From a virus, in the UHGV virus genome UHGV-0263785: a DNA stretch of 42,602 nt. One strand, written 5' to 3'. A program made the translations under genes and the position numbers. This document shows, piece by piece, positions 16,006 through 31,503 of the stretch. The notes beneath the pieces are model-generated. The model did no database searches and had not been told where the DNA came from. It saw only the letters and a list, made by a program, of their open reading frames with translations. The first letter of the stretch is position 1, and the number at the start of each line of letters is the position of its first letter.

Positions 16006-17312
16006 TATTCATCCCCTAAAATTGAACGCCCTGCAGCAACCAGCATCGAGACGTTTGCGGTTGTTCCTGTTGCCGTAGTACTGCCAGCATCCTGAATAGT
16101 CGCTGGTGATTCAGTGCTCATTAGTGTATCGAGCGCCGTTTCTGTCCGCGCCTGCGCCGTTTTAGGTGCTGCAGCGAGGACTACCTGCGCCTGCCCGACC
16201 GTCATCCCGGGGACGCCAGCGAGCGCTTTTGCCTGCGCCTCGCGCCCAACAGCTTCGGGACAATTGATGATGGCCATCACACGCGCCAGTTCGCTTGATG
16301 CGGCGTCCGCGCGAATCTGCTCCGTGTTAAACTCAACCTGCGCGACAGTAGTCGTGGTCGCGGTTTGTTCTGTGGTCGTGGTCTCCGCCGTGGTTTCTGT
16401 ACCAGACATAAAGCGCTCCATTTTTGGTTTCAGTGCGTCGGCCATCACTGCGATAGCGTCCGCGTAATTAACGAGTTGATCAGCGAGACCAGATTTAATC
16501 GCGTCCGCGCCGATAAATACTGCAGCTTCCGTGGCCAGCACCCTGGATTTTTTCAGCCCGGTATAATCCGAGACTTTTTGCGCGAACTGCTCGCGCGTGC
16601 TGTTAATACTCAGCTGGAATTCGTCGCGAACGTCGCCTGGCAGCTGGGAATACGGGTTCCCGTCAACTTTGTGCGCGCCGGCGTAAATCAGCGTCACGTC
16701 GACGCCAGCAATCTCCAGCGCTTTTTCGACGCAGCGGTGAGCCATCAGGACACCGATTGAACCAACTGTGCCTGTCTGCGTTATCAGCCGGCGCGAACAC
16801 GCTGACGCCAGCAAATAGGCAGCGCTGCAGGCCGTATCGCTGGCCAGCGCCCACACAGGTTTTTGCTCTCGCGCCCGGGCGATTAAATCAGCAGTATCAA
16901 ACGCGCCGGCGACTTCACCGCCAGGGGAGTCAATATCAAGCAGGACCCCTCTTACATCGGGATCAGAAATCGCCTGCTGCAGGCGTTTTGCGATTCCGTT
17001 GTAACCGCTCATCCCGCTAACTGGGTTGATATAACCCAATTTATGAACCAGCGTCCCGGTAACCGGCAGAACGGCTATACCACGCTCCACGCGATACGAT
17101 TTCTGGCGTGTTCGCTCGCTGCTGTCCCACCCCATCGCGAGCGCGTTCATTTCGTCGCTGTTCATTACCTCTCCAGACGCTGTATCAATCAGTCGCCCGG
17201 TACCGAACCGGTCGCTCAGCGCCGAAAAAAATACCCGCGCGTAGGTGGGCTCCAGCAAAAGCGGTTGATTGAACGCCCTGGCGGCGAGGTGCGGAAAATT
17301 GTTCCACGGCAT
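16005..17312 (-). CDS. Head protease / minor capsid protein C (S49 family, lambda gpC-like)
   Basis: 435 aa; ..GYNGIAKRLQQAISDPDVRGVLLDIDSPGGEVAGAF..PVWALASDTACSAAYLLASACSRRL..SHKVDGNPYS.. parallels lambda C. Confidence 0.85.
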   Translation of the reverse strand: MPWNNFPHLAARAFNQPLLLEPTYARVFFSALSDRFGTGRLIDTASGEVMNSDEMNALAMGWDSSERTRQKSYRVERGIAVLPVTGTLVHKLGYINPVSGMSGYNGIAKRLQQAISDPDVRGVLLDIDSPGGEVAGAFDTADLIARAREQKPVWALASDTACSAAYLLASACSRRLITQTGTVGSIGVLMAHRCVEKALEIAGVDVTLIYAGAHKVDGNPYSQLPGDVRDEFQLSINSTREQFAQKVSDYTGLKKSRVLATEAAVFIGADAIKSGLADQLVNYADAIAVMADALKPKMERFMSGTETTAETTTTEQTATTTTVAQVEFNTEQIRADAASSELARVMAIINCPEAVGREAQAKALAGVPGMTVGQAQVVLAAAPKTAQARTETALDTLMSTESPATIQDAGSTTATGTTANVSMLVAAGRSILGDE

Positions 17313-18876
17313 CAGTTACCTCCCCAGCCGTTATCGTTGGTATTTGAGGGGTGAGATACAGACCATGACGGTTCGCTCAGCCCCATTTCACGCCGGCGCT
17401 GAATTTCGTATTCCTGCTGCTCCATAACCTCCTCGTAATCCTGTCCCTGCAGCGCCAGTTCGTTCTGATACGTGCTGAGGCCAGTTGTGATGCGCATGGC
17501 GCTCTCCTGAACCTCTTTCAGCCCATCAATCGCCATGCGACCAGCGCCGATCCAGAGCGCGTTCGTCCAGGAGTTCCGCGCCTCATAAAACGACCGGACA
17601 GCTGAGCGTGGCAGGGTGATAATTCCGCGTGCCAGCGCCTCTTCAAACCAGCAGCAGAACATCAGCGACGCCTGTCGCGCGGCGATAAAACGTCGACGCC
17701 CCATGAAAAATCGCCAGCTGACGTTAGCACTGGCCCGGGCGCTGGAGTAACTGACCTGGCTGTAGTCCCGGCTAAGTTCTTCGTATGACGCGCCAACGCC
17801 AGCTGCAACGTAACGCAGGAGTGATTTTTCCAGTGAACTAAAACCAGCATCAGCATTCTGAGCGGTCTGTAAACTGAGTTTGTCGCCGGGATGCAGGTGG
17901 GGAACTTTCACACCACCGAGCTTGATATTTGCGCCGTTGTAGTACGTCACGTAACTCTGAATAAACGAATTCAGCGGGTTCGAGTCGATATCAGTACCCG
18001 CGCCGGCGATATATTCAAACGCCTGCTGGCTGTCGAGCTCTGATTCGATTGTCGCGGCATACATCGCCATGATGATCCGCGAGGGCGTGGCTACTCACGC
18101 TTTCAACGGTGAAACCTGCGTACAACCAGTCTGGGAGAGTAGTGCCGGCAGCGTTTTTCGGACGCGATTCAAAATGGTCTCACCGAAACGGATTCGAAAT
18201 CCGGGTTACGCAGCTGACACTCAATTTCGCCGCGCCGGTGTTGATATCGATAAAAACGGGGCCGCGGTCGGGTACTGGATAGCCGAGGATACTTACCCTC
18301 TCGGCGGAGTCGGTAAATGCCGGCGTATCCCAGCACAGCTCAGCAGCGGCAGACACGCATTCATCCACATATTCGAGCCGCTCGAGGACGGACAGACCCG
18401 CGGGGACAATATTTTTTACAGCGTCATGGAGCGCCTGAAAATGCTCGACACACTGCAGCAAACACAACTGCAGAGCGCCATTGTGAAGGCGATGTATGCC
18501 GCGACAATGTGCAGTGAGGGTCCTCGGCGTATTCAGTCCACGCTACCTCGACGTCACGCGCCAGCGCCCTGGCGTCCTCGCGAGATATGCCGAGGTAACG
18601 CCAGTTAGGGCGATAACTCAACTTAAACAGATTGCCGACGATATGATCCTGGTGCAGCTGCACGGCGTTCGACGCGACGCCGTTATTGCGAACGAGATCG
18701 TCTGCTCGCGCGTTACCGCGATAAAAATTCGGCAACAGTGCTGCGTCGGCGCTCTGCTGTGGTGCGTTCCAGTCAATCAGCTGGCCACCGAAACCGGGAC
18801 CGCCGCCGTTATACCCCGCGTAACGGCGTAGTGGCGTTTTACCGTCAGGCCCGAGCAGCTGCTGCGGAGCAGTCAT
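17312..18876 (-). pseudogene. Portal protein gene (lambda gpB family) interrupted by an internal inverted block
   Basis: N-terminal part on the minus strand (18876 to about 18509: ..LLGPDGKT..YAGYNGGGPGFGGQL..RGNARADDLVRNNG..LHQDHIVG..), middle part on the PLUS strand (18069-18487: MMIREGVATHAF...FIHIFEPLEDGQTRGDNIFYSVMERLKMLDTLQQTQLQSAIVK) and C-terminal part on the minus strand (18067-17312: AMYAATIESELD...GRMAIDGLKEVQES..). Confidence 0.8.
18048..18508. repeat. Perfect 21-bp inverted repeat (18048-18068 attgtcgcggcatacatcgcc; reverse complement at 18488-18508) bracketing the inverted portal block
   Basis: Read directly; neighbouring bases do not extend the repeat. Confidence 0.85.
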
Positions 18877-24608: not shown

Positions 24609-25201
24609 GATGTGTAATCCAGCAGCTGCGCGGCGGCATTTTCAGCGGCCTCCTGAGAGGCAAATGTGCGGAACAAAATATAATTCCACAGCACATCTAA
24701 AACGGCTGAATACAGTTGACCGAACTCAAGATCGTCCATCGCTGCAAACGAGATTGAACGAGGTACGCGCATCAAACTGCCGTCTGGCATCTGATGAACG
24801 TCATAAAACCCAGCTTCCATAATCGCCCATGCGCGAAACGCCTCGAACGACTTCACCGCACTGATACTCCCCGCGCGCTTTTCCGACTCATCGAGAAGAT
24901 ACTGATCAGCCAGCTCTGCCATGACATCACCGTGTCCACCGTAATACGCCAGTAACTTAACGTAGCCGTGAACCAGTTCGCGCTCCGCAGGAGAAATAGC
25001 CCCTCCGGACGGATGCCAGTAATCAAAGCCCAGGTTGAGAAGTGAGAAAAATTTACGATGAAACGCGGGATTACGCGCCTGTTTGAAATCTGCATACACA
25101 ACAGCACCTGGTTTGACTCGTTCAGTCAACCAGCGTTGCGTGTCTGGTGTCGCGGGTATTAGCGAACCGCCGGATACCCTGATAAATGAATGCTGCGCCA
25201 T
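24605..25201 (-). CDS. nin-region protein, possibly NinB-like
   Basis: 198 aa; weak resemblance to the NinB core pattern; low-confidence family call. Confidence 0.3.
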   Translation of the reverse strand: MAQHSFIRVSGGSLIPATPDTQRWLTERVKPGAVVYADFKQARNPAFHRKFFSLLNLGFDYWHPSGGAISPAERELVHGYVKLLAYYGGHGDVMAELADQYLLDESEKRAGSISAVKSFEAFRAWAIMEAGFYDVHQMPDGSLMRVPRSISFAAMDDLEFGQLYSAVLDVLWNYILFRTFASQEAAENAAAQLLDYTS

Positions 25202-25278
25202 GGTTAACTCCAGGTGGCGCGGCAGTGTTCAGAAAATGGTGCCGGGTGTTCAATCCAGCACCGATATTATACCGTGTT

Positions 25279-25479
25279 TTACGCGTCAGGGGGTGTAATA
25301 GTATATCCAGCTATTTCTGCCAACTCGAGAAACGCCATCAGGCTGGCAATCCGCTCATCATCGGTCAGAACACGCACACCAACGATGTGTCCGTCCTTAC
25401 GCTTGATAACAGCCCGGCATGTTTCCGGTAGTTCGCCTATAGATTCTTGAATATTCATGTCTTCCCCCCAATGCCACAA
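25279..25479 (-). CDS. Hypothetical small protein
   Basis: 66-aa ORF in the operon direction. Confidence 0.3.
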   Translation of the reverse strand: MWHWGEDMNIQESIGELPETCRAVIKRKDGHIVGVRVLTDDERIASLMAFLELAEIAGYTITPPDA

Positions 25480-25609
25480 CCTGTATATTTATACAGTATT
25501 TTATGGCATTTGTCATAACGCCAAATACAATGAGGGAATAATGAACAATTATATTCACGTCGTGAATTTTATTAAACGGTTTTATAGGGGATTAAACCGT
25601 TTATGGTCA

Positions 25610-26250
25610 TTATTTATCACTCCTGTAAATTGGAATTAACCATTTTCTAATCGTCGACGCTGCAGGTGGGTCAGAGTATTTCGCCACAAAAATACCGGAT
25701 ATGTATTGCACGCCACGCGATAATGGCGCTGTCGGGTTTTCAGTAAAAAAACGATCAGCCAGTTCAATGGCTTCGCTTTTTAATCTGTGCTGTGGTCGTC
25801 CTCCGCCCTTTGTTCCCAGGTATCGCGCCAGTTGTTTGAAACGGTAGGCGATGATTAACGGTCGCATCATCATATTGAAAAAATCGCGGGCATCGTTGTC
25901 AGCGCCTTGCGCTATCAACAGTGCAAAAAACAGATACGGGATTATGTACACTTCAGGAGATATACGAACCCGTTCACAAGTTGGTGGAGCCAACTCAATA
26001 AGTAAGTCAGCCAGCGGATTCCCCTTTTCTCCACGTTTGTAATAGCGATACAGCGGCCCGATATCAAGTTCACTCACGTCGATTTCAGGATGCCCGGCAA
26101 CGACTGTACGTATCTCTTCTGCCAGAGCGTCAAATATTGCCCCGGTCCGTTCAAGATAGAGCCTCCGGGTCGAACCGCGATCATCCAACGCCCGTAACAT
26201 ATCTAACCGGCTAACGAAAGTTTCAGGCCAGTCCTCATAGAAGGTTTTCA
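25610..26250 (-). CDS. Hypothetical protein
   Basis: The listed ORF starts at GTG (26287); the ATG at 26250 (MKTFYEDW) is preceded by GAGGT. Confidence 0.4.
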
Positions 26251-26494
26251 TAATTACCTCGAATAATAAAAACTGCACTATTTGCACAATTTATTATTCG
26301 TTTTCACGCCGCTGAGTTCTATAAAAAAGAAAAAACCTCCGAGGCAGGGTTTTGTTATGGCTCGTTAAATCATCATCCAACTTTTTAGACTGAACGGTGA
26401 TACTTGCAAATATTTGAAAATATGGGCTGGAACCCTATCTTATGATGTGCCTGGTAATTTATATTGTTGGGTCTTTATATCATGAGGAATCACT

Positions 26495-26728
26495 ATGGGT
26501 ACGTTAGGCAACCAGCCGTGCAGAAGTCGTTATGAGTTCGATGATTTTAATTTAGCCAATCGAGCTGCGGCTCTTACTAAGTTAGCAAAAGAAACTGGTG
26601 TATCGGTGGATACCTTAATCAAACTTGAAATTGCTATGCAACTGAATCGGCTCAACTCCATCCTTATCGAAAACGGTGACAAGATGGACGAGAATCTGGC
26701 AGGTATTGGCGAGATACTGCAGAAGTGA
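26495..26728 (+). CDS. Hypothetical small protein, possible HTH (..LAKETGVSVDTLIKLE..)
   Basis: 77-aa ORF at the edge of the AT-rich island, about 400 bp upstream of the ImmA-like gene. Confidence 0.3.
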   Translation: MGTLGNQPCRSRYEFDDFNLANRAAALTKLAKETGVSVDTLIKLEIAMQLNRLNSILIENGDKMDENLAGIGEILQK

Positions 26729-27126
26729 GAGTAGCCCCTCTTCTGAGGGGTTGCACATTTAAAATATTAAGGGCGGTCTTCTTCACGTACACAGTCACCT
26801 GGTCGAATCGTTCACGCATACTGAGTACAAAAAATCTCAACGATAAGATCAGGTTAGACCTGTATTTTCCAGAAACATATAGACGCCTAAAAAAACACTA
26901 AACTCATGATTATCATGTATGTTTTTACTGGAAACATTGAACCATCCACAATACAGCGTAAAAAGCAAGCAATTCACAAGATTTTAAAGTGATTTATCTG
27001 GAAGACTTTACTACTAACAGTTAATATCGTACCAGAAGTGCAGAATTTGCACTTTTACAGGAATGTGGTACGGAACATGCTGTCTATATTTCAACCAATA
27101 ATCGTAATGCAGTAACTGGAGGAGCT

Positions 27127-27615
27127 ATGGCTACCAACCCAAGAGAGCACGCCCGGCGAGTGCTGGACACGTTCTGGTGCGGGCGTGGTTTCCCTGTTGA
27201 TCCAGCGAAAATTGCTCACGACATGGGATTAGATGTTTTTATTACCGATCTTCCTGGGAAAGTTTCTGGCGCACTGATTAAACAAAAAGATCAAGATCCA
27301 GCGATCTTTCTAAACAGTGATGACAACAAAGTTCGTCAACGTTTTTCATGTGGGCATGAGTTGGGGCATTACATCGCCCGGCAAGCATCGCATAGCGATG
27401 AATATGAGTACGTTGATTTACGTGGCGAAACCGCAAGCGCCGGAACGCATCCTGATGAAATTTTTGCAAACAAGTTCGCAGCAGAACTTCTGATGCCGGT
27501 AGATGAGGTCAGAAAACTGCACGCTGACGGTCAACCAAGTTATATAATGGCGCATTATTTTGGCGTATCTGACGATGCGATGACTTATCGTTTAAAGAAC
27601 TTGAGGTTGGGGTAA
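27127..27615 (+). CDS. ImmA/IrrE-family zinc metallopeptidase (COG2856-like)
   Basis: 162 aa; HEXXH motif (HELGHY) followed by ..DEIFANKFAAELLMP.. characteristic of ImmA/IrrE peptidases; GGAGGAG RBS before the ATG. Confidence 0.7.
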   Translation: MATNPREHARRVLDTFWCGRGFPVDPAKIAHDMGLDVFITDLPGKVSGALIKQKDQDPAIFLNSDDNKVRQRFSCGHELGHYIARQASHSDEYEYVDLRGETASAGTHPDEIFANKFAAELLMPVDEVRKLHADGQPSYIMAHYFGVSDDAMTYRLKNLRLG

Positions 27616-27624
27616 CGCTTTAAA

Positions 27625-28230
27625 ATGCCATCGGATGACGATTTTAACAGCCGTTTCAAACAGGAAGTAGCACGCAGACTGAAGGATTCCCTCAACCTAC
27701 ACCGTCAGTTAGCAGAAGAGGTTGAGCCGGAGGACGATGAAACTCCGGTTCAGTCTCCTGACGAAGCTTCACCTCAGCCAAAGGTTTCGCACGCCCCCAA
27801 AAAAACGGCTGTCCGTATTCGCGGAATAGCCAGAAAAAGAGCTGCCGAAGCTCGCAAAATGGCTGTAGCTGCGTCTAGCAAAAGAATTCCAACTGCTACA
27901 CCCTCTCAACAAGTCACCCGTACTGAGAGTAAAATCTTGACCGAGTTCACATCTGTGAAACAGGTGAATTCACTTGATACCGAGCATGAGCGCAAACAAC
28001 TCAACAACAAAGATTTTGAAGCAGAAATCGCTCTAAAAAAACGATACGGGAAATGGTTCCTGATTATCCTTGCTTTCCAACTTCTGATAATGAATGGTGT
28101 ATTTATTGCCGACGGCGCAGGTAAGCTGGAATTTGAGGATTTAACACTACAGTTGTACATGGGCGGTACTTTGACAGAGGTATTCGGCCTCGTGCTGGTC
28201 GTGACAAAATACCTTTTTAAACGCAAGTAA
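27625..28230 (+). CDS. Membrane protein with charged, low-complexity N-terminal region and two C-terminal TM helices; partner of the ImmA-like peptidase
   Basis: 201 aa; starts 9 bp after the peptidase stop; C-terminus ..WFLIILAFQLLIMNGVFIADGAG..LTEVFGLVLVVTKYLFKRK. Confidence 0.55.
   Translation: MPSDDDFNSRFKQEVARRLKDSLNLHRQLAEEVEPEDDETPVQSPDEASPQPKVSHAPKKTAVRIRGIARKRAAEARKMAVAASSKRIPTATPSQQVTRTESKILTEFTSVKQVNSLDTEHERKQLNNKDFEAEIALKKRYGKWFLIILAFQLLIMNGVFIADGAGKLEFEDLTLQLYMGGTLTEVFGLVLVVTKYLFKRK
28152..28230 (+). repeat. Direct repeat copy 1 (the last ~26 codons of the membrane-protein gene)
   Basis: About 79 bp, roughly 90% identical to 31575-31653; homology ends exactly at the stop codon. 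Confidence 0.8.
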
Positions 28231-28244
28231 CTCTCTCGGTCCAA

Positions 28245-28266
28245 CAGTCTTTCGAAGGCCCTGATC
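28245..28266 (+). terminator. Hairpin (aaggccc-tgatca-aagggcctt) 3' of the membrane-protein gene
   Basis: Inverted repeat 15 bp after the stop. Confidence 0.35.
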
Positions 28267-28692
28267 AAAGGGCCTTGATAAATTAGCAGTGCGTTGAAAA
28301 CAGATAGTTATTCCCATCAGTTCCAACGTAATACACATCAAAAAAATCACCATTCTTTTGCTCTAACGTCAACACCTACCCTTAAAAAAATAATTCTCCA
28401 AGAATGAGAAAGTTATTGTGTGTATTAGATAAGATATGAGCTGACACATCTATGGCGTGGAGCCAAATTTAATATGACAGTCCGCTCTGTGCCATAAGCG
28501 GACTGTCAATAAACAGATTCACTTGTAAATCTTGAAGCTATACATATTTACTTTCAATGATAAATAAAAGAACTATCCAAAAATCACTGAGAGCATATTT
28601 TAACTAACCCTCCGCTACTATTAACATAAATTTCACCCAACCATAATTAAATTGATACATATAGCAACTTACCTTGATACGAATCATCTGGG

Positions 28693-29391
28693 TTATATTT
28701 TTCCATATTTTTTTCCGTCAAATCGAATCATGCCAGGATCAAGAAAATTAATTAAATCGATTAACGCGTGCTGTATTCTGATTAGCCTTTCTTTATAAAT
28801 TCCGATATCTCTTGTCATATTTATCACTTCATTGTTTAAATCTAAAAAAAATGGCTCATTGATAAAGCAATTTTCCTTTGTGAAACTGCCGTAACCTATG
28901 CAATCAAATCCAGTATCTGTTGATATCAGCATCTTTTCTGCAATAGCTCTCTGCTCTCCTATGAAAAACATAAAATACTGACCAAAGACGTCTGTTTGGA
29001 TTAATGAGTTAATATTGTTCTGTAATCTAATAAACTCCCTCATTTTTTTATTTTTTTCTAGGCTAAGGTATTGAATGTCTATGCGGGCAGCTTCTGTCCA
29101 TGCAAAAAACTGGGAAAAAAGAAAAACAGTATTGTTGATAACATAATCTTGTTGGCGCTTATTCCCATTATGATAAAACTCTTCAATGAACCCCAATTCT
29201 AATATATTATAAATACGGCTTTGTAAGTCTGAAGCTGAGCGAATTAACGGTTCAATATAGTACTGATGTTTTCTCCTTACATCCAGTGATTCATTGAGCT
29301 TGTTTATTCTATTCTGATTATAAGTAGATATAGCAATAGAGATTATAGCTATTGCACCACTAATAAAGCTTGAAATTAATGCCGTACCCAT
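28693..29391 (-). CDS. Membrane-anchored hypothetical protein (N-terminal TM helix), strongly AT-rich gene
   Basis: 232 aa, ATG start; N-terminus MGTALISSFISGAIAIISIAISTY; base composition clearly lower in GC than the phage backbone. Confidence 0.5.
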   Translation of the reverse strand: MGTALISSFISGAIAIISIAISTYNQNRINKLNESLDVRRKHQYYIEPLIRSASDLQSRIYNILELGFIEEFYHNGNKRQQDYVINNTVFLFSQFFAWTEAARIDIQYLSLEKNKKMREFIRLQNNINSLIQTDVFGQYFMFFIGEQRAIAEKMLISTDTGFDCIGYGSFTKENCFINEPFFLDLNNEVINMTRDIGIYKERLIRIQHALIDLINFLDPGMIRFDGKKYGKI

Positions 29392-29954
29392 CTAAAAGTC
29401 CTTTGATTCTTGCTTGGTTAACAAAATGACATAATTTTATTTAATGCCATAACAACTTAACAATATATCATAATATGATTATTATGGTGTAGCTTGTCGC
29501 ATCTACGCTCCATTACAAACAGATGTAAGATATAACCTATATGTTTTAGCCAGCAAATTCGAAAGCATTCAAAGTAGTCTCATCGAACTCTCGAAACCCT
29601 ATGTCTTCGGGTATAAAATATTTAAATCCATTTGCATAATATCGACTCATGTTTATTATATTCTCCCCATTCACCATTAAGATTTGACATTATTTTCAAC
29701 AATCGGTTATTGCAAGATTGAAATATATTTTTACTTGACACAATATTCCATGTAGCCCAGCGATTCGACTTACCCCCAACTATACGGACAATCTAAATTA
29801 AATCGATGATTTTTTGATACATTCTCCTCTCTCCATTACTTTATGTTTTTGTTCCCCAAAAATACCTTGCTCTCTAAAAAATAATTGTTCTTTAAGTTCA
29901 AAATCGAGATCTACATGAGCGTTAGATACAAAGCTAATATGTTGAAATGTCTTT

Positions 29955-29963
29955 CCCCCCCCC
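29955..29963. repeat. Homopolymeric C9 (G9 on the minus strand) tract
   Basis: Counted directly: ctttccccccccc|ataacgg. Confidence 0.9.
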
Positions 29964-30579
29964 ATAACGGCATTGTTATCTAAACTATGTTACACAAATA
30001 TAATATTACCCTTTCAACGTAATCCAAGAATAAGATTAATGCCATTATATATATCATAAATATGATATTTTGTATATTTTTATCATTTAGCCTTGATTGT
30101 ACTAGGTGTACTCTCAACGAAGTAGGGAAAGTCTGTTCCTCGCTCACAGCTGCCCTTCAGTAAGCGAAAAAATGCCTACTCGGTGCCATATACAGCCATT
30201 GTTATTAACAGCAGGGAATAATTCAAAACTGAAATTAAATATCTACCTTTTACAGTAGAAATAGTTCCTCCAGGACACTATCCATTGCCGGGCACAATCA
30301 CTCGGGGTATAACGATATAAAATATGTTCATGATAGTGCAGGTTCGTATATTAAGTTCAGCAGCGAAAACATGCCTTACAGGTTTCCGGTTTTGGGAGCG
30401 TCGTTACAGGATCCTGCGCATACCGTTCCCATCTGTTGAATTAAAGGTTTCACAGCCTTTGCCGATATCACCTTTTACCTTACCTGTGATGCGTTCAGTG
30501 CTCAGCGTTGTTTACTGTAGCTCTCGGGACTGATTACAGACCGCGTCTTAAAAACCAATCCTTACTCTAAAGGGAATTC

Positions 30580-31503
30580 ATGAGATTAAAATACTCAGTA
30601 CTCTTACTCGCCATTGCCCTTACAGGCTGTGATAACAAAAAAGATGAGATCGGTTGTTCTTCGGAAATAACCCAGTCAGCTCTCATGGATTTATTAAAAA
30701 AATCTGCTTATGAAGGACTCTCTGAACAGGTCGATAAATACCCTGATGTCACTAATCAGACCAAACGAAGCACACTGGACAAGATCAAACTAGCCATCTC
30801 TGAGATCTCCACAACATCAAGTGACACGGGCAGCACAATGAAAACTTGTGAAGGGACCGTGACGATGACTCTATCTGCGAACGAGTACGTCCAGCTTTCA
30901 GATGCTTACAGAAAGAATTTTAATCGTAATCTCGATAAGCAAATGGAAAGCCTGTTTTTGGAGAACAACGCAAACGCCTTTTCAAAACGTATCACCTACA
31001 CCGTGCAGGCGACCGACGATCAGAAAAACGTTTTTGTAAAAACCTCTACTGATAATCCGATATCAGTGGGCGCCGCTTTACTGACATCGCTTTCCATTAT
31101 CACCCCGATCGTTGAGCAGCAGAAAATCCAGCAGGCTAAGGATGCCCAACAGAGTCAAATTGAAGCGGAACAACAGGTGCAACTCAGGGCGCAAGAACAG
31201 GCTAAGTATGAGGCGGAGAAGCAAATAGAGAGACAGGCACAACTTCAGCCGCAAAAAGCTGACAACCTTGATCAGTCCCGAATGGCATTTGCGAATGCCG
31301 ACTCTGATTTGAGTACCGTCTGGAGCAAGTTAACCCCGGCGAAGAAAAAAGATTTGCTGCCTTCTCAGCGTCAGTGGATCAAAACTAAGGATGCTATGTG
31401 CGGTAAAGTTTCAATGCAGGGAACAGATGCTGAAGTCAAGAAAATGGTCGACTGCCAGACGCAAATGACCCTTTCAAGAATCGCTTTCCTCAGAAACCAA
31501 TAA
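30580..31503 (+). CDS. Lipoprotein with central Gln/Glu-rich coiled-coil and C-terminal DUF1311 (LprI-like) domain
   Basis: 307 aa; lipobox (LLAIALTGC|D); C-terminal ..SQRQWIKTKDAMCGKVSMQGTDAEVKKMVDCQTQMTLSRIAFLRNQ fits the DUF1311 pattern (Q..W...RD..C......C....T..R...L). Confidence 0.6.
   Translation: MRLKYSVLLLAIALTGCDNKKDEIGCSSEITQSALMDLLKKSAYEGLSEQVDKYPDVTNQTKRSTLDKIKLAISEISTTSSDTGSTMKTCEGTVTMTLSANEYVQLSDAYRKNFNRNLDKQMESLFLENNANAFSKRITYTVQATDDQKNVFVKTSTDNPISVGAALLTSLSIITPIVEQQKIQQAKDAQQSQIEAEQQVQLRAQEQAKYEAEKQIERQAQLQPQKADNLDQSRMAFANADSDLSTVWSKLTPAKKKDLLPSQRQWIKTKDAMCGKVSMQGTDAEVKKMVDCQTQMTLSRIAFLRNQ

What the first reader, a model, noticed from the sequence alone, without database searches (positions are those of the whole stretch)
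29792..29965. C9/G9 homopolymer abutting the start codon of a 57-codon minus-strand ORF
A run of nine C (29955-29963) sits in an AT-rich intergenic stretch. On the minus strand it reads ATG-G8 followed by an open frame of 57 codons (MGGGKTFQHISFVSNAHVDLDFELKEQLFFREQGIFGEQKHKVMERGECIKKSSI*). A mononucleotide tract at the 5' end of a reading frame is the classic arrangement for slipped-strand phase variation; a gain or loss of one G would switch the ORF on or off. Such tracts are unusual in enterobacterial phage DNA.
Basis: seen in the sequence. Interest (0 to 1): 0.45.

Follow-up and report, generated by a model that had tools for sequence, protein, structure and literature searches.

The report
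Variable poly-G tract in a dead gene
The nine-C/G run is real and its length differs between closely related E. coli ST131 genomes, but it sits at the head of a decayed nuclease-like gene, so it is most likely a neutral slippage-prone repeat and not a genetic on/off switch.

Summary
The C9 run (29955-29963) and the minus-strand ORF that starts ATG-G8 are there. The ORF is 55 aa (29798..29965), not 57 codons. The tract is the only G/C run of 8 or more in the window.

It lies in a 1.7-kb AT-rich accessory cassette (about 28437-30150) of an E. coli ST131 prophage. P2-like phages carry the same cassette in their Z region.

The 55-aa ORF is the N-terminal third of a decayed gene. That gene belongs to a family of more than 1,500 intact proteins of about 150 aa with a restriction-endonuclease-like fold. 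In the window the gene has frameshifts, a deletion and lost catalytic residues. The G run replaces the ancestral ribosome-binding site, spacer and start codon. P2-like copies have GGGGAGATG there, plus in-frame stops.

Tract length does vary among 409 complete genomes: C9 196, C8 185, C10 about 17, C7 about 11. In a 60-genome sample, most C8 genomes carried one extra mismatch in the same 4.8-kb stretch. This is probably the nearby SNP seen in JJ1886, which suggests mostly clonal inheritance with sporadic slippage.

Verdict: a slippage-prone repeat in a pseudogene, probably neutral. Functional phase variation is not supported. Interest is low.

The parts
29955..29963 (-). C9 on + strand / G9 on - strand. 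Its length is polymorphic (7-10) among ST131 genomes.
   Evidence: for the sequence. for lengths in other genomes and contigs.
29798..29965 (-). 55-aa ORF. It is the N-terminal fragment (about residues 1-50) of the decayed 'gene A'. It is open only in the C9 (or C6/C12) allele.
   Evidence: ORF; tblastn of P0121, E=4e-23; phrog_7353, a 55-position profile, matches residues 7-55 of intact P0121; allele-dependent ORF lengths.
29546..29965 (-). Whole remnant of gene A, a member of a ~150-aa family with a restriction-endonuclease-like fold. The N-terminal part is 29798-29965, the out-of-frame middle is 29622-29741, and the C-terminal part is the 43-aa ORF 29546..29677.
   Evidence: homology, frameshifts, D60N and E71G at invariant positions; 79% identity and 5 indel events against the P2-EC58 copy; fold of the intact family.
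29966..30150 (-). Conserved upstream region of gene A and right end of the cassette. It includes one arm of the imperfect terminal inverted repeat and the palindromic motif CAAAATATCATATTTATGATATAT (30049-30072).
   Evidence: conserved in the P2-like and L011 copies; inverted repeat in AJ512683; motif.
29463..29486 (-). Second copy of the ATCATA..TATGAT palindromic motif, just upstream of ORF1.
   Evidence: local alignment score 31, against a shuffle mean of 19.5 and maximum of 30.
28693..29391 (-). ORF1, 232 aa, the intact 'lysogenic protein' (phrog_5606). It has a hydrophobic N-terminal stretch that looks like a transmembrane helix. It is the conserved cargo of the cassette.
   Evidence: 94% identity and no indels against P2-EC58; weak PADLOC hit to RTasTM, E=1.8e-5.
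28475..28508 (-). Terminator-like hairpin downstream of ORF1. It lies inside the 'left inverted repeat' annotated in P2-EC58.
28437..30150 (.). Extent of the AT-rich cassette shared (87% identity) with the Z region of P2-EC58 and other P2-like prophages.

Best explanation
The G9/C9 run is a slippage-prone mononucleotide repeat inside non-functional DNA.

It lies at the 5' end of the remnant of a small gene ('gene A'). That gene once sat upstream of the still-intact 'lysogenic protein' gene (ORF1) in a 1.7-kb AT-rich accessory cassette. The intact family of gene A has a restriction-endonuclease-like fold. The cassette occurs in the Z region of P2-like phages and, here, in an E. coli ST131 prophage.

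Gene A was already broken before the ST131-type and P2-type cassettes diverged, because both share a 2-nt frameshift. In the ST131 lineage the stretch that held the ribosome-binding site, spacer and start codon became a run of G.

Because nothing is selected there, replication slippage changes the run by +/-1 now and then, and the changes persist. One early change (C9 versus C8) appears to mark a large sublineage. Later sporadic changes give C7, C10 and some exceptions.

The 55-codon 'ORF' is just the frame that happens to stay open in the C9 allele.

Shown: the tract, its polymorphism, the pseudogene status, and the absence of an SD or a spanning promoter. Inferred: slippage as the cause, neutrality, and no effect on ORF1.
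For: 1. Pseudogene. Reconstructing the less decayed copy (L011) gives a 150-aa protein. It matches more than 1,500 intact proteins of 150-160 aa over their full length, at 58-87% identity.
2. Intact P0121 aligns to the window at E=4e-23. The N- and C-terminal parts are in one frame and the middle is frameshifted or deleted.
3. Family-invariant D60 and E71 (FDLG...VECK) are N and G in the window.
4. Decay. Against the P2-EC58 copy, the remnant is 79% identical with 5 indel events. ORF1 is 94% identical with none.
5. The P2-like copies have GGGGAGATG in place of G9 and in-frame stops at codons 4, 23 and 27.
6. The G run replaces the ancestral ...GGAG-TTTATTCTG-ATG-GGA-AAG... region, so no SD precedes the window's ATG.
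7. No sigma-70-like site spans the tract and there is no Rfam hit. PGAP annotates nothing there.
8. Polymorphism: C9 196, C8 185, C7 about 11, C10 about 17 of 409 genomes. These lengths were read directly in six loci and in 5 viral or metagenome contigs.
9. There is no 3-nt periodicity favouring the open frame.
10. Control: a C7 run in a coding gene of the same prophage is identical in 419 of 429 genomes. The other 752 nt around the tract show almost no variation.
11. Linkage. In a 60-genome spread sample, about 16-17 of roughly 19 C8 genomes carry one extra mismatch in the 4.8-kb query, while 20 of 23 C9 genomes carry none. JJ1886 (C8) differs from the window by the SNP at 25239. About 201 genomes carry one mismatch in a 91-nt query around that site.
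12. [quoted passage not shown]
Against: - No expression data exist. A weakly translated 55-aa peptide, or a polar effect of its translation on ORF1, cannot be excluded by sequence alone.
- Converting GGGGAGATG to G9 needs three changes within five bases, which is more than the local divergence predicts. The origin of the run is therefore not explained.
- The cross-tabulation of tract length against the SNP rests on bit scores in a 60-row sample, not on a full phylogeny. I did not check that the extra mismatch is the 25239 SNP in each genome.
Confidence: 0.85

Rival explanations
1. One reading: a true contingency locus in which gain or loss of one G turns a functional 55-aa protein on or off.
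For: The tract is at the very start of an ORF. Length variants C7-C10 exist in the population. Only C9 keeps the frame open. The fragment has been called as a phage protein family (phrog_7353, 55 positions).
Against: The ORF is the first third of a ~150-aa protein and lacks that protein's conserved core. There is no SD. The homologous P2-like copies have no tract and three early stops. C8, which is out of frame, is as frequent as C9. Inheritance is mostly clonal. PGAP does not annotate it.
Confidence: 0.03
2. The tract tunes expression of the downstream intact gene ORF1. In this model a long transcript starts upstream of gene A, and translation of the leader ORF (open only in G9) reduces Rho-dependent polarity. 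Alternatively, the G run affects transcription elongation.
For: Gene A and ORF1 are co-oriented, and no terminator-like site was found between them. The region upstream of gene A is better conserved (88%) than the pseudogene (79%). It also shares a palindromic motif with the ORF1-proximal region.
Against: About 400 nt of untranslated remnant still follow the 55-codon ORF. ORF1 homologues elsewhere stand alone, with only 180-350 nt of upstream spacer and no gene A, so they must have their own promoter. AJ512683 annotates ORF1-proximal -35/-10 and RBS elements. In the sample, C8 and C9 largely follow lineages without sign of selection for either.
Confidence: 0.06
3. The length variation is mainly a sequencing or assembly artefact at a difficult homopolymer, and the true tract is the same in all strains.
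Against: In the 60-genome sample the C8/C9 split largely follows one extra mismatch 4.7 kb away, probably the 25239 SNP. It is also consistent across assemblies from many different laboratories and years (JJ1886, ZH063 versus SaT040, ZH193). A C7 run in the same prophage is identical in 98% of genomes. Human-gut and other metagenome contigs show C9.
Confidence: 0.06

Closest known systems
Poly-G/C contingency loci of Campylobacter jejuni, Neisseria and Haemophilus: slipped-strand phase variation through a homopolymer in the 5' coding region (from established knowledge, e.g. the work of Moxon and colleagues)
   Same: A G/C homopolymer of 8-10 next to a start codon. Length changes of +/-1 occur among close relatives. 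Only one length class keeps the frame open.
   Different: Those tracts sit in intact, selected genes with working translation signals, and they switch at high frequency within a clone. Here the frame is a pseudogene fragment with no SD, sister copies lack the tract, and tract length is mostly inherited clonally.
Small pseudogene remnants in the accessory/defence loci of P2-like prophages and P4-like satellites (PMC13586616)
   Same: A short, unannotated, decayed gene fragment next to an intact accessory gene in a phage variable locus. The same cassette lies between the tail fibre assembly and tail sheath genes of P2-like prophages.
   Different: The copy in the window is in a different prophage, one with a Q antiterminator and lambda-like head genes. 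It has also acquired a hypermutable homopolymer, a feature that paper does not describe.
Z-region ORF1 cassette of phage P2-EC58 (GenBank AJ512683, 'lysogenic protein')
   Same: Same gene order, the same ORF1 (94% nucleotide identity), the same decayed upstream gene with a shared 2-nt frameshift, and the same end sequences.
   Different: P2-EC58 has GGGGAGATG where the window has G9. The cassette's genomic location also differs.

Membership tests
Simple-sequence-repeat contingency (phase-variable) locus | Long mononucleotide tract (about 7 or more G/C) | tested here: met
   C9 at 29955-29963.
Simple-sequence-repeat contingency (phase-variable) locus | Tract length differs among closely related strains | tested here: met
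   C7 about 11, C8 185, C9 196, C10 about 17 of 409 genomes. Lengths were read directly in loci L005-L010.
Simple-sequence-repeat contingency (phase-variable) locus | The tract lies in an intact functional gene, or between promoter elements, so that its length gates expression | tested here: not met
   The ORF is a fragment of a frameshifted gene with lost invariant residues. No SD is present. No promoter-like site spans the tract.
Simple-sequence-repeat contingency (phase-variable) locus | Tract and reading frame are conserved in homologous loci | tested here: not met
   P2-EC58, EC-107 and GDAR2-2 have GGGGAGATG and early stops. L011 and the intact genes have SD-spacer-ATG with no run.
Simple-sequence-repeat contingency (phase-variable) locus | High-frequency reversible switching within a clonal population | not testable with these tools
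   No read-level data were available. Indirect evidence points against it: in a 60-genome sample, tract length mostly follows one extra mismatch in the same 4.8-kb stretch.
Pseudogene of the ~150-aa restriction-endonuclease-fold family (intact members P0121-P0240) | Significant similarity to intact members over both ends of the protein | tested here: met
   tblastn of P0121 against the window gives E=4e-23, covering residues 7-56 and 124-151. The family has 1,551 members at E<=0.01.
Pseudogene of the ~150-aa restriction-endonuclease-fold family (intact members P0121-P0240) | Reading frame disrupted relative to intact members | tested here: met
   A stop follows codon 55, the middle part is in other frames, and there is a 26-nt gap relative to L011.
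Pseudogene of the ~150-aa restriction-endonuclease-fold family (intact members P0121-P0240) | Loss of family-invariant (putative catalytic) residues | tested here: met
   Invariant D60, E71, C72 and H75 read N, G, G and N in the window's conceptual translation.
Pseudogene of the ~150-aa restriction-endonuclease-fold family (intact members P0121-P0240) | Intact members adopt a PD-(D/E)xK restriction-endonuclease-like fold | tested here: met
P2 Z-region 'lysogenic protein' cassette (AJ512683) | 232-aa ORF1 with flanking imperfect inverted repeats | tested here: met
   87% identity over 1.7 kb, including both ends.
P2 Z-region 'lysogenic protein' cassette (AJ512683) | Location between the tail fibre assembly gene and the tail sheath gene of a P2-like phage | tested here: not met
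   In the window it lies between an ImmA/IrrE module and an LprI-family gene of a different prophage. The P2 location holds for EC-107 and GDAR2-2.

The most novel reading that the evidence does not exclude
The G tract could be a working contingency element in a major pathogenic E. coli clone. In that reading, its length sets how far ribosomes travel on the leader of a long transcript, and so modulates expression of the downstream membrane 'lysogenic protein'. That protein is a candidate phage-defence or abortive-infection effector, with weak similarity to the TM partner of DRT reverse-transcriptase systems. ST131 sublineages fixed for C8 or C9 would then differ in a prophage-encoded phenotype.
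Probability: 0.05. Interest if true: 0.55.

Novelty: new member of a known kind. Interest (0 to 1): 0.15.

Why it matters
The main value is as a caution. An eye-catching 'ATG + homopolymer + ORF' arrangement can be the accidental product of gene decay.

There are two minor practical points:
- The tract is a fast-evolving length marker inside an otherwise almost invariant ST131 prophage (4 SNPs in 40 kb between JJ1886 and SaT040). It is also a likely site of homopolymer errors in assemblies.
- The analysis shows that the unannotated ~570 bp upstream of the 'lysogenic protein' gene is a dead gene from a family with a restriction-endonuclease-like fold. It also shows that the same cassette has moved between P2-like phages and an unrelated prophage.

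If the tract did regulate ORF1, it would be a rare case of repeat-based phase variation in E. coli.

Tried and rejected
- Rfam scan of 28300-30600 at a permissive threshold gave only a chance-level hit inside ORF1.
- The promoter/terminator scan found as many promoter-like sites as in shuffles, none spanning the tract.
- Pfam, PADLOC, NCBIfam and PDB sequence searches of the small ORFs and of intact gene A found nothing usable. Only the fold comparison was informative.
- I tested whether gene A and ORF1 form a conserved two-gene system and rejected it. Intact gene A homologues in the Yersinia, E. coli TA054 and Vibrio loci and in metagenome locus L016 have unrelated neighbours. ORF1 homologues in L014 and L015 (Providencia rettgeri) lack gene A.
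- I tested whether ORF1's proximal upstream DNA is conserved in distant homologues. Alignment scores were at shuffle level, so I make no claim from it.
- A pattern scan of the species-representative genomes found no copy.
- The EC958 genome paper lists homopolymer discrepancies, but none in or near a prophage cassette of this kind.
- The original P2-EC58 paper (Nilsson et al. 2004) is not held.

Full report
**Observation.** The run is the longest homopolymer in the window and the only G/C run of 8 or more. A C9/G9 occurred in 7 of 100 dinucleotide-preserving shuffles. The neighbourhood (28400-30200) is 29-37% GC, against 42-54% in the flanking parts of the profiled 26-34 kb stretch.

**Context.** The 2.3 kb around the tract is present at 99% identity or more in over 400 complete E. 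coli chromosomes, many of them labelled O25b:H4-ST131. It lies in a prophage next to tRNA-Leu/Cys/Gly-pgsA-uvrC.
- RefSeq annotates only one gene between 28300 and 30580. This is a 232-aa hypothetical protein, here called ORF1 (28693..29391, minus strand). Nothing is annotated under the tract.
- The only phage-database match is the 'Z-region' of P2-EC58 (AJ512683), at 87% identity over 28437-30150. There the depositors annotated ORF1 as a 'lysogenic protein', flanked by left and right inverted repeats.
- Four E. coli genomes carry this P2-type version. In the two I inspected, it lies between the tail fibre assembly and tail sheath genes of P2-like prophages.
- So the tract lies in a mobile 1.7-kb AT-rich accessory cassette, about 570 nt upstream of its one intact gene and on the same strand.

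**What the small ORF is.** A more divergent copy of the cassette (L011-L013, ORF1 85% identical at the protein level) has a clear Shine-Dalgarno and start at the homologous place (AAGGAG-N9-ATG GGA AAG...). A 63-aa ORF there aligns with the window's 55-aa ORF.
- Joining the two frames of L011 across one frameshift gives a 150-aa protein. It matches 1,551 database proteins, the best ones at 58-87% identity over the full length, and they are 150-160 aa long.
- Intact P0121 aligns to the window's minus strand at E=4e-23. Residues 7-56 fall in the 55-aa ORF and residues 124-151 in the 43-aa ORF 29546..29677. Both are in the same frame, and the middle part is out of frame and partly deleted.
- The family has 43 invariant positions, including FDLG...VECKSHRW. 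In the window's conceptual translation the corresponding residues read RFNLD and VGGKSNRW, so D60 became N and E71 became G.
- The 55-aa ORF is therefore the N-terminal third of a dead gene from a family with a restriction-endonuclease-like fold. PHROGs even holds a 55-position family (phrog_7353) that matches only this fragment of the intact protein.

**State of the tract in relatives.** The P2-like copies read GGGGAGATG where the window has G9. In the same frame they have stops at codons 4, 23 and 27.
- Anchoring on the conserved TTTCAAC shows that intact genes read ...GTTATGGAG TTTATTCTG ATG GGA AAG..., while the window reads ...GTTATGG GGGGGGG AAAG....
- The G run thus occupies the place of the ancestral SD, spacer and start codon. 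The window's ATG is the one that overlaps the old SD, and nothing SD-like precedes it (GATAACAATGCCGTT).
- The ST131-type and P2-type copies share a 2-nt frameshift after the KK codons, so the gene was dead before they diverged.
- Between these two copies, ORF1 is 94% identical with no indels and roughly equal numbers of synonymous and non-synonymous codon changes. The remnant is 79% identical with five indel events.

**Tract-length polymorphism.**
- A 91-nt query centred on the tract is identical in 196 genomes and differs in 213.
- A 37-nt query with C8 is identical in 185. It is one step away in 207 (196 C9 plus about 11 C7) and two steps away in 17 (C10).
- Reading six loci confirmed that the difference is in the run itself: C10 twice, C8 twice and C7 twice.
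- Two IMG/VR contigs have C8 and C9, and three metagenome contigs have C9.
- The variation is not general noise. The other 752 nt of a 761-nt query are almost invariant. A C7 run in a coding gene of the same prophage is identical in 419 of 429 genomes.
- Only C9 (or C6/C12) keeps the 55-codon frame. C8 gives 17 codons, C7 gives 9 and C10 gives 10. The frequencies show no preference for the open frame.

**Is it rapid switching?** JJ1886 (C8) and SaT040 (C9) differ over 40 kb of prophage by only four SNPs plus the tract. One of these SNPs, at window 25239, separates JJ1886 from the window.
- About 201 genomes carry one mismatch in a 91-nt query around that site.
- In a 60-genome spread sample of a 4.8-kb query covering both sites, bit scores and alignment spans give roughly this table:

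| 4.8-kb query | C7 | C8 | C9 | C10 |
|---|---|---|---|---|
| No extra mismatch | 0 | 2 | 20 | 1 |
| One extra mismatch | 2-3 | 16-17 | 3 | 1 |

- I did not confirm that the extra mismatch is the 25239 SNP in each genome. The table is a sample, not a census.
- On this evidence, tract length is mostly inherited with the lineage, with roughly 10-20% exceptions on either background.
- My inference: the run mutates far faster than single bases, but far slower than classical contingency loci, which would be randomised on this timescale.

**Other functions considered.** No promoter-like site spans the tract, and the number of such sites in this AT-rich region equals the shuffle expectation. No Rfam family matches.
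- An effect on ORF1 through a long leader transcript cannot be excluded by sequence.
- Against it, ORF1 homologues elsewhere stand alone with 180-350 nt of upstream DNA and no gene A. About 400 nt of untranslated remnant would also remain after the small ORF.
- Gene A and ORF1 are not a conserved pair. Intact gene A homologues have unrelated neighbours.

**Comparison with known systems.** The arrangement looks like the poly-G contingency genes of Campylobacter, Neisseria and Haemophilus. It fails two of their defining features: an intact gated gene, and conservation of tract and frame. A third, high-frequency switching within a clone, could not be tested directly, and the sample linkage argues against it. 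[quoted passage not shown]

**Verdict.** The best-supported reading is a neutral, slippage-prone homopolymer at the head of a decayed gene, not a phase-variation switch (confidence about 0.85). This particular tract has not, to my knowledge, been described, but it is an ordinary kind of thing. Interest is low.

Noticed in passing
window 18069-18508 (junctions 18049-18068 and 18489-18508): A 440-bp segment inside the portal gene is inverted relative to the JJ1886 and SaT040 prophages. The junctions carry a 20-nt inverted duplication, and about 26 nt of the reference are missing. The portal ORF is split (17312..18070 and 18424..18876). This could be a real rearrangement or an assembly artefact.
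   Followed up: partly
window 1-1430 versus 9950-42602: The window is a circular permutation of the chromosomal prophage. Its last base joins its first in the JJ1886 order, and the integrase end sits at 1-1430. It therefore looks like a circularised phage genome and not a chromosomal slice.
   Followed up: partly
window 28693-29391 (-): The intact 'lysogenic protein' (phrog_5606; at least 290 homologues across several bacterial groups) has a hydrophobic N-terminal stretch that looks like a transmembrane helix. It gives a weak PADLOC hit (E=1.8e-5) to RTasTM, the membrane partner of DRT reverse-transcriptase defence systems. That makes it a candidate stand-alone defence effector.
   Followed up: partly
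window 30049-30072 and 29463-29486 (-): A palindromic motif (ATCATA-N1-2-TATGAT, within CA[A/T]AAT..ATCATAT[T]TATGATATAT) occurs upstream of both the dead gene A and ORF1. It is followed in each case by T[A/G]T[A/T]ATGGCATTAA. It may be a shared promoter or operator.
   Followed up: partly
E. coli genomes H1-H4, H92, H222-H223, H248, H251, H271 (region homologous to window 25190-30600): Several ST131 genomes carry an IS1 insertion inside or next to the cassette. In WP4-S17-ESBL-03 it lies within 29400-30160. Others carry an ISEc53 element with a ClbS/DfsB gene nearby. This fits DNA that tolerates insertions.
   Followed up: no
L011-L013 (loci with an ORF1 homologue 85% identical): This third lineage of the cassette also has gene A inactivated, but by a different single frameshift, in an A-rich stretch after ...CPKQK. 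Gene A has therefore been lost more than once when it sits next to ORF1.
   Followed up: partly
window 27127-27615 (+) and 27625-28230 (+): An ImmA/IrrE metallopeptidase (PADLOC capP-like, E=2e-25) is followed by a 201-aa protein of unknown function (phrog_5346), immediately beside the cassette.
   Followed up: no
L025/L026 (Vibrio vulnificus): Intact gene A homologues in Vibrio sit in runs of short same-strand ORFs, which looks like an integron cassette array. I did not check for attC sites.
   Followed up: no
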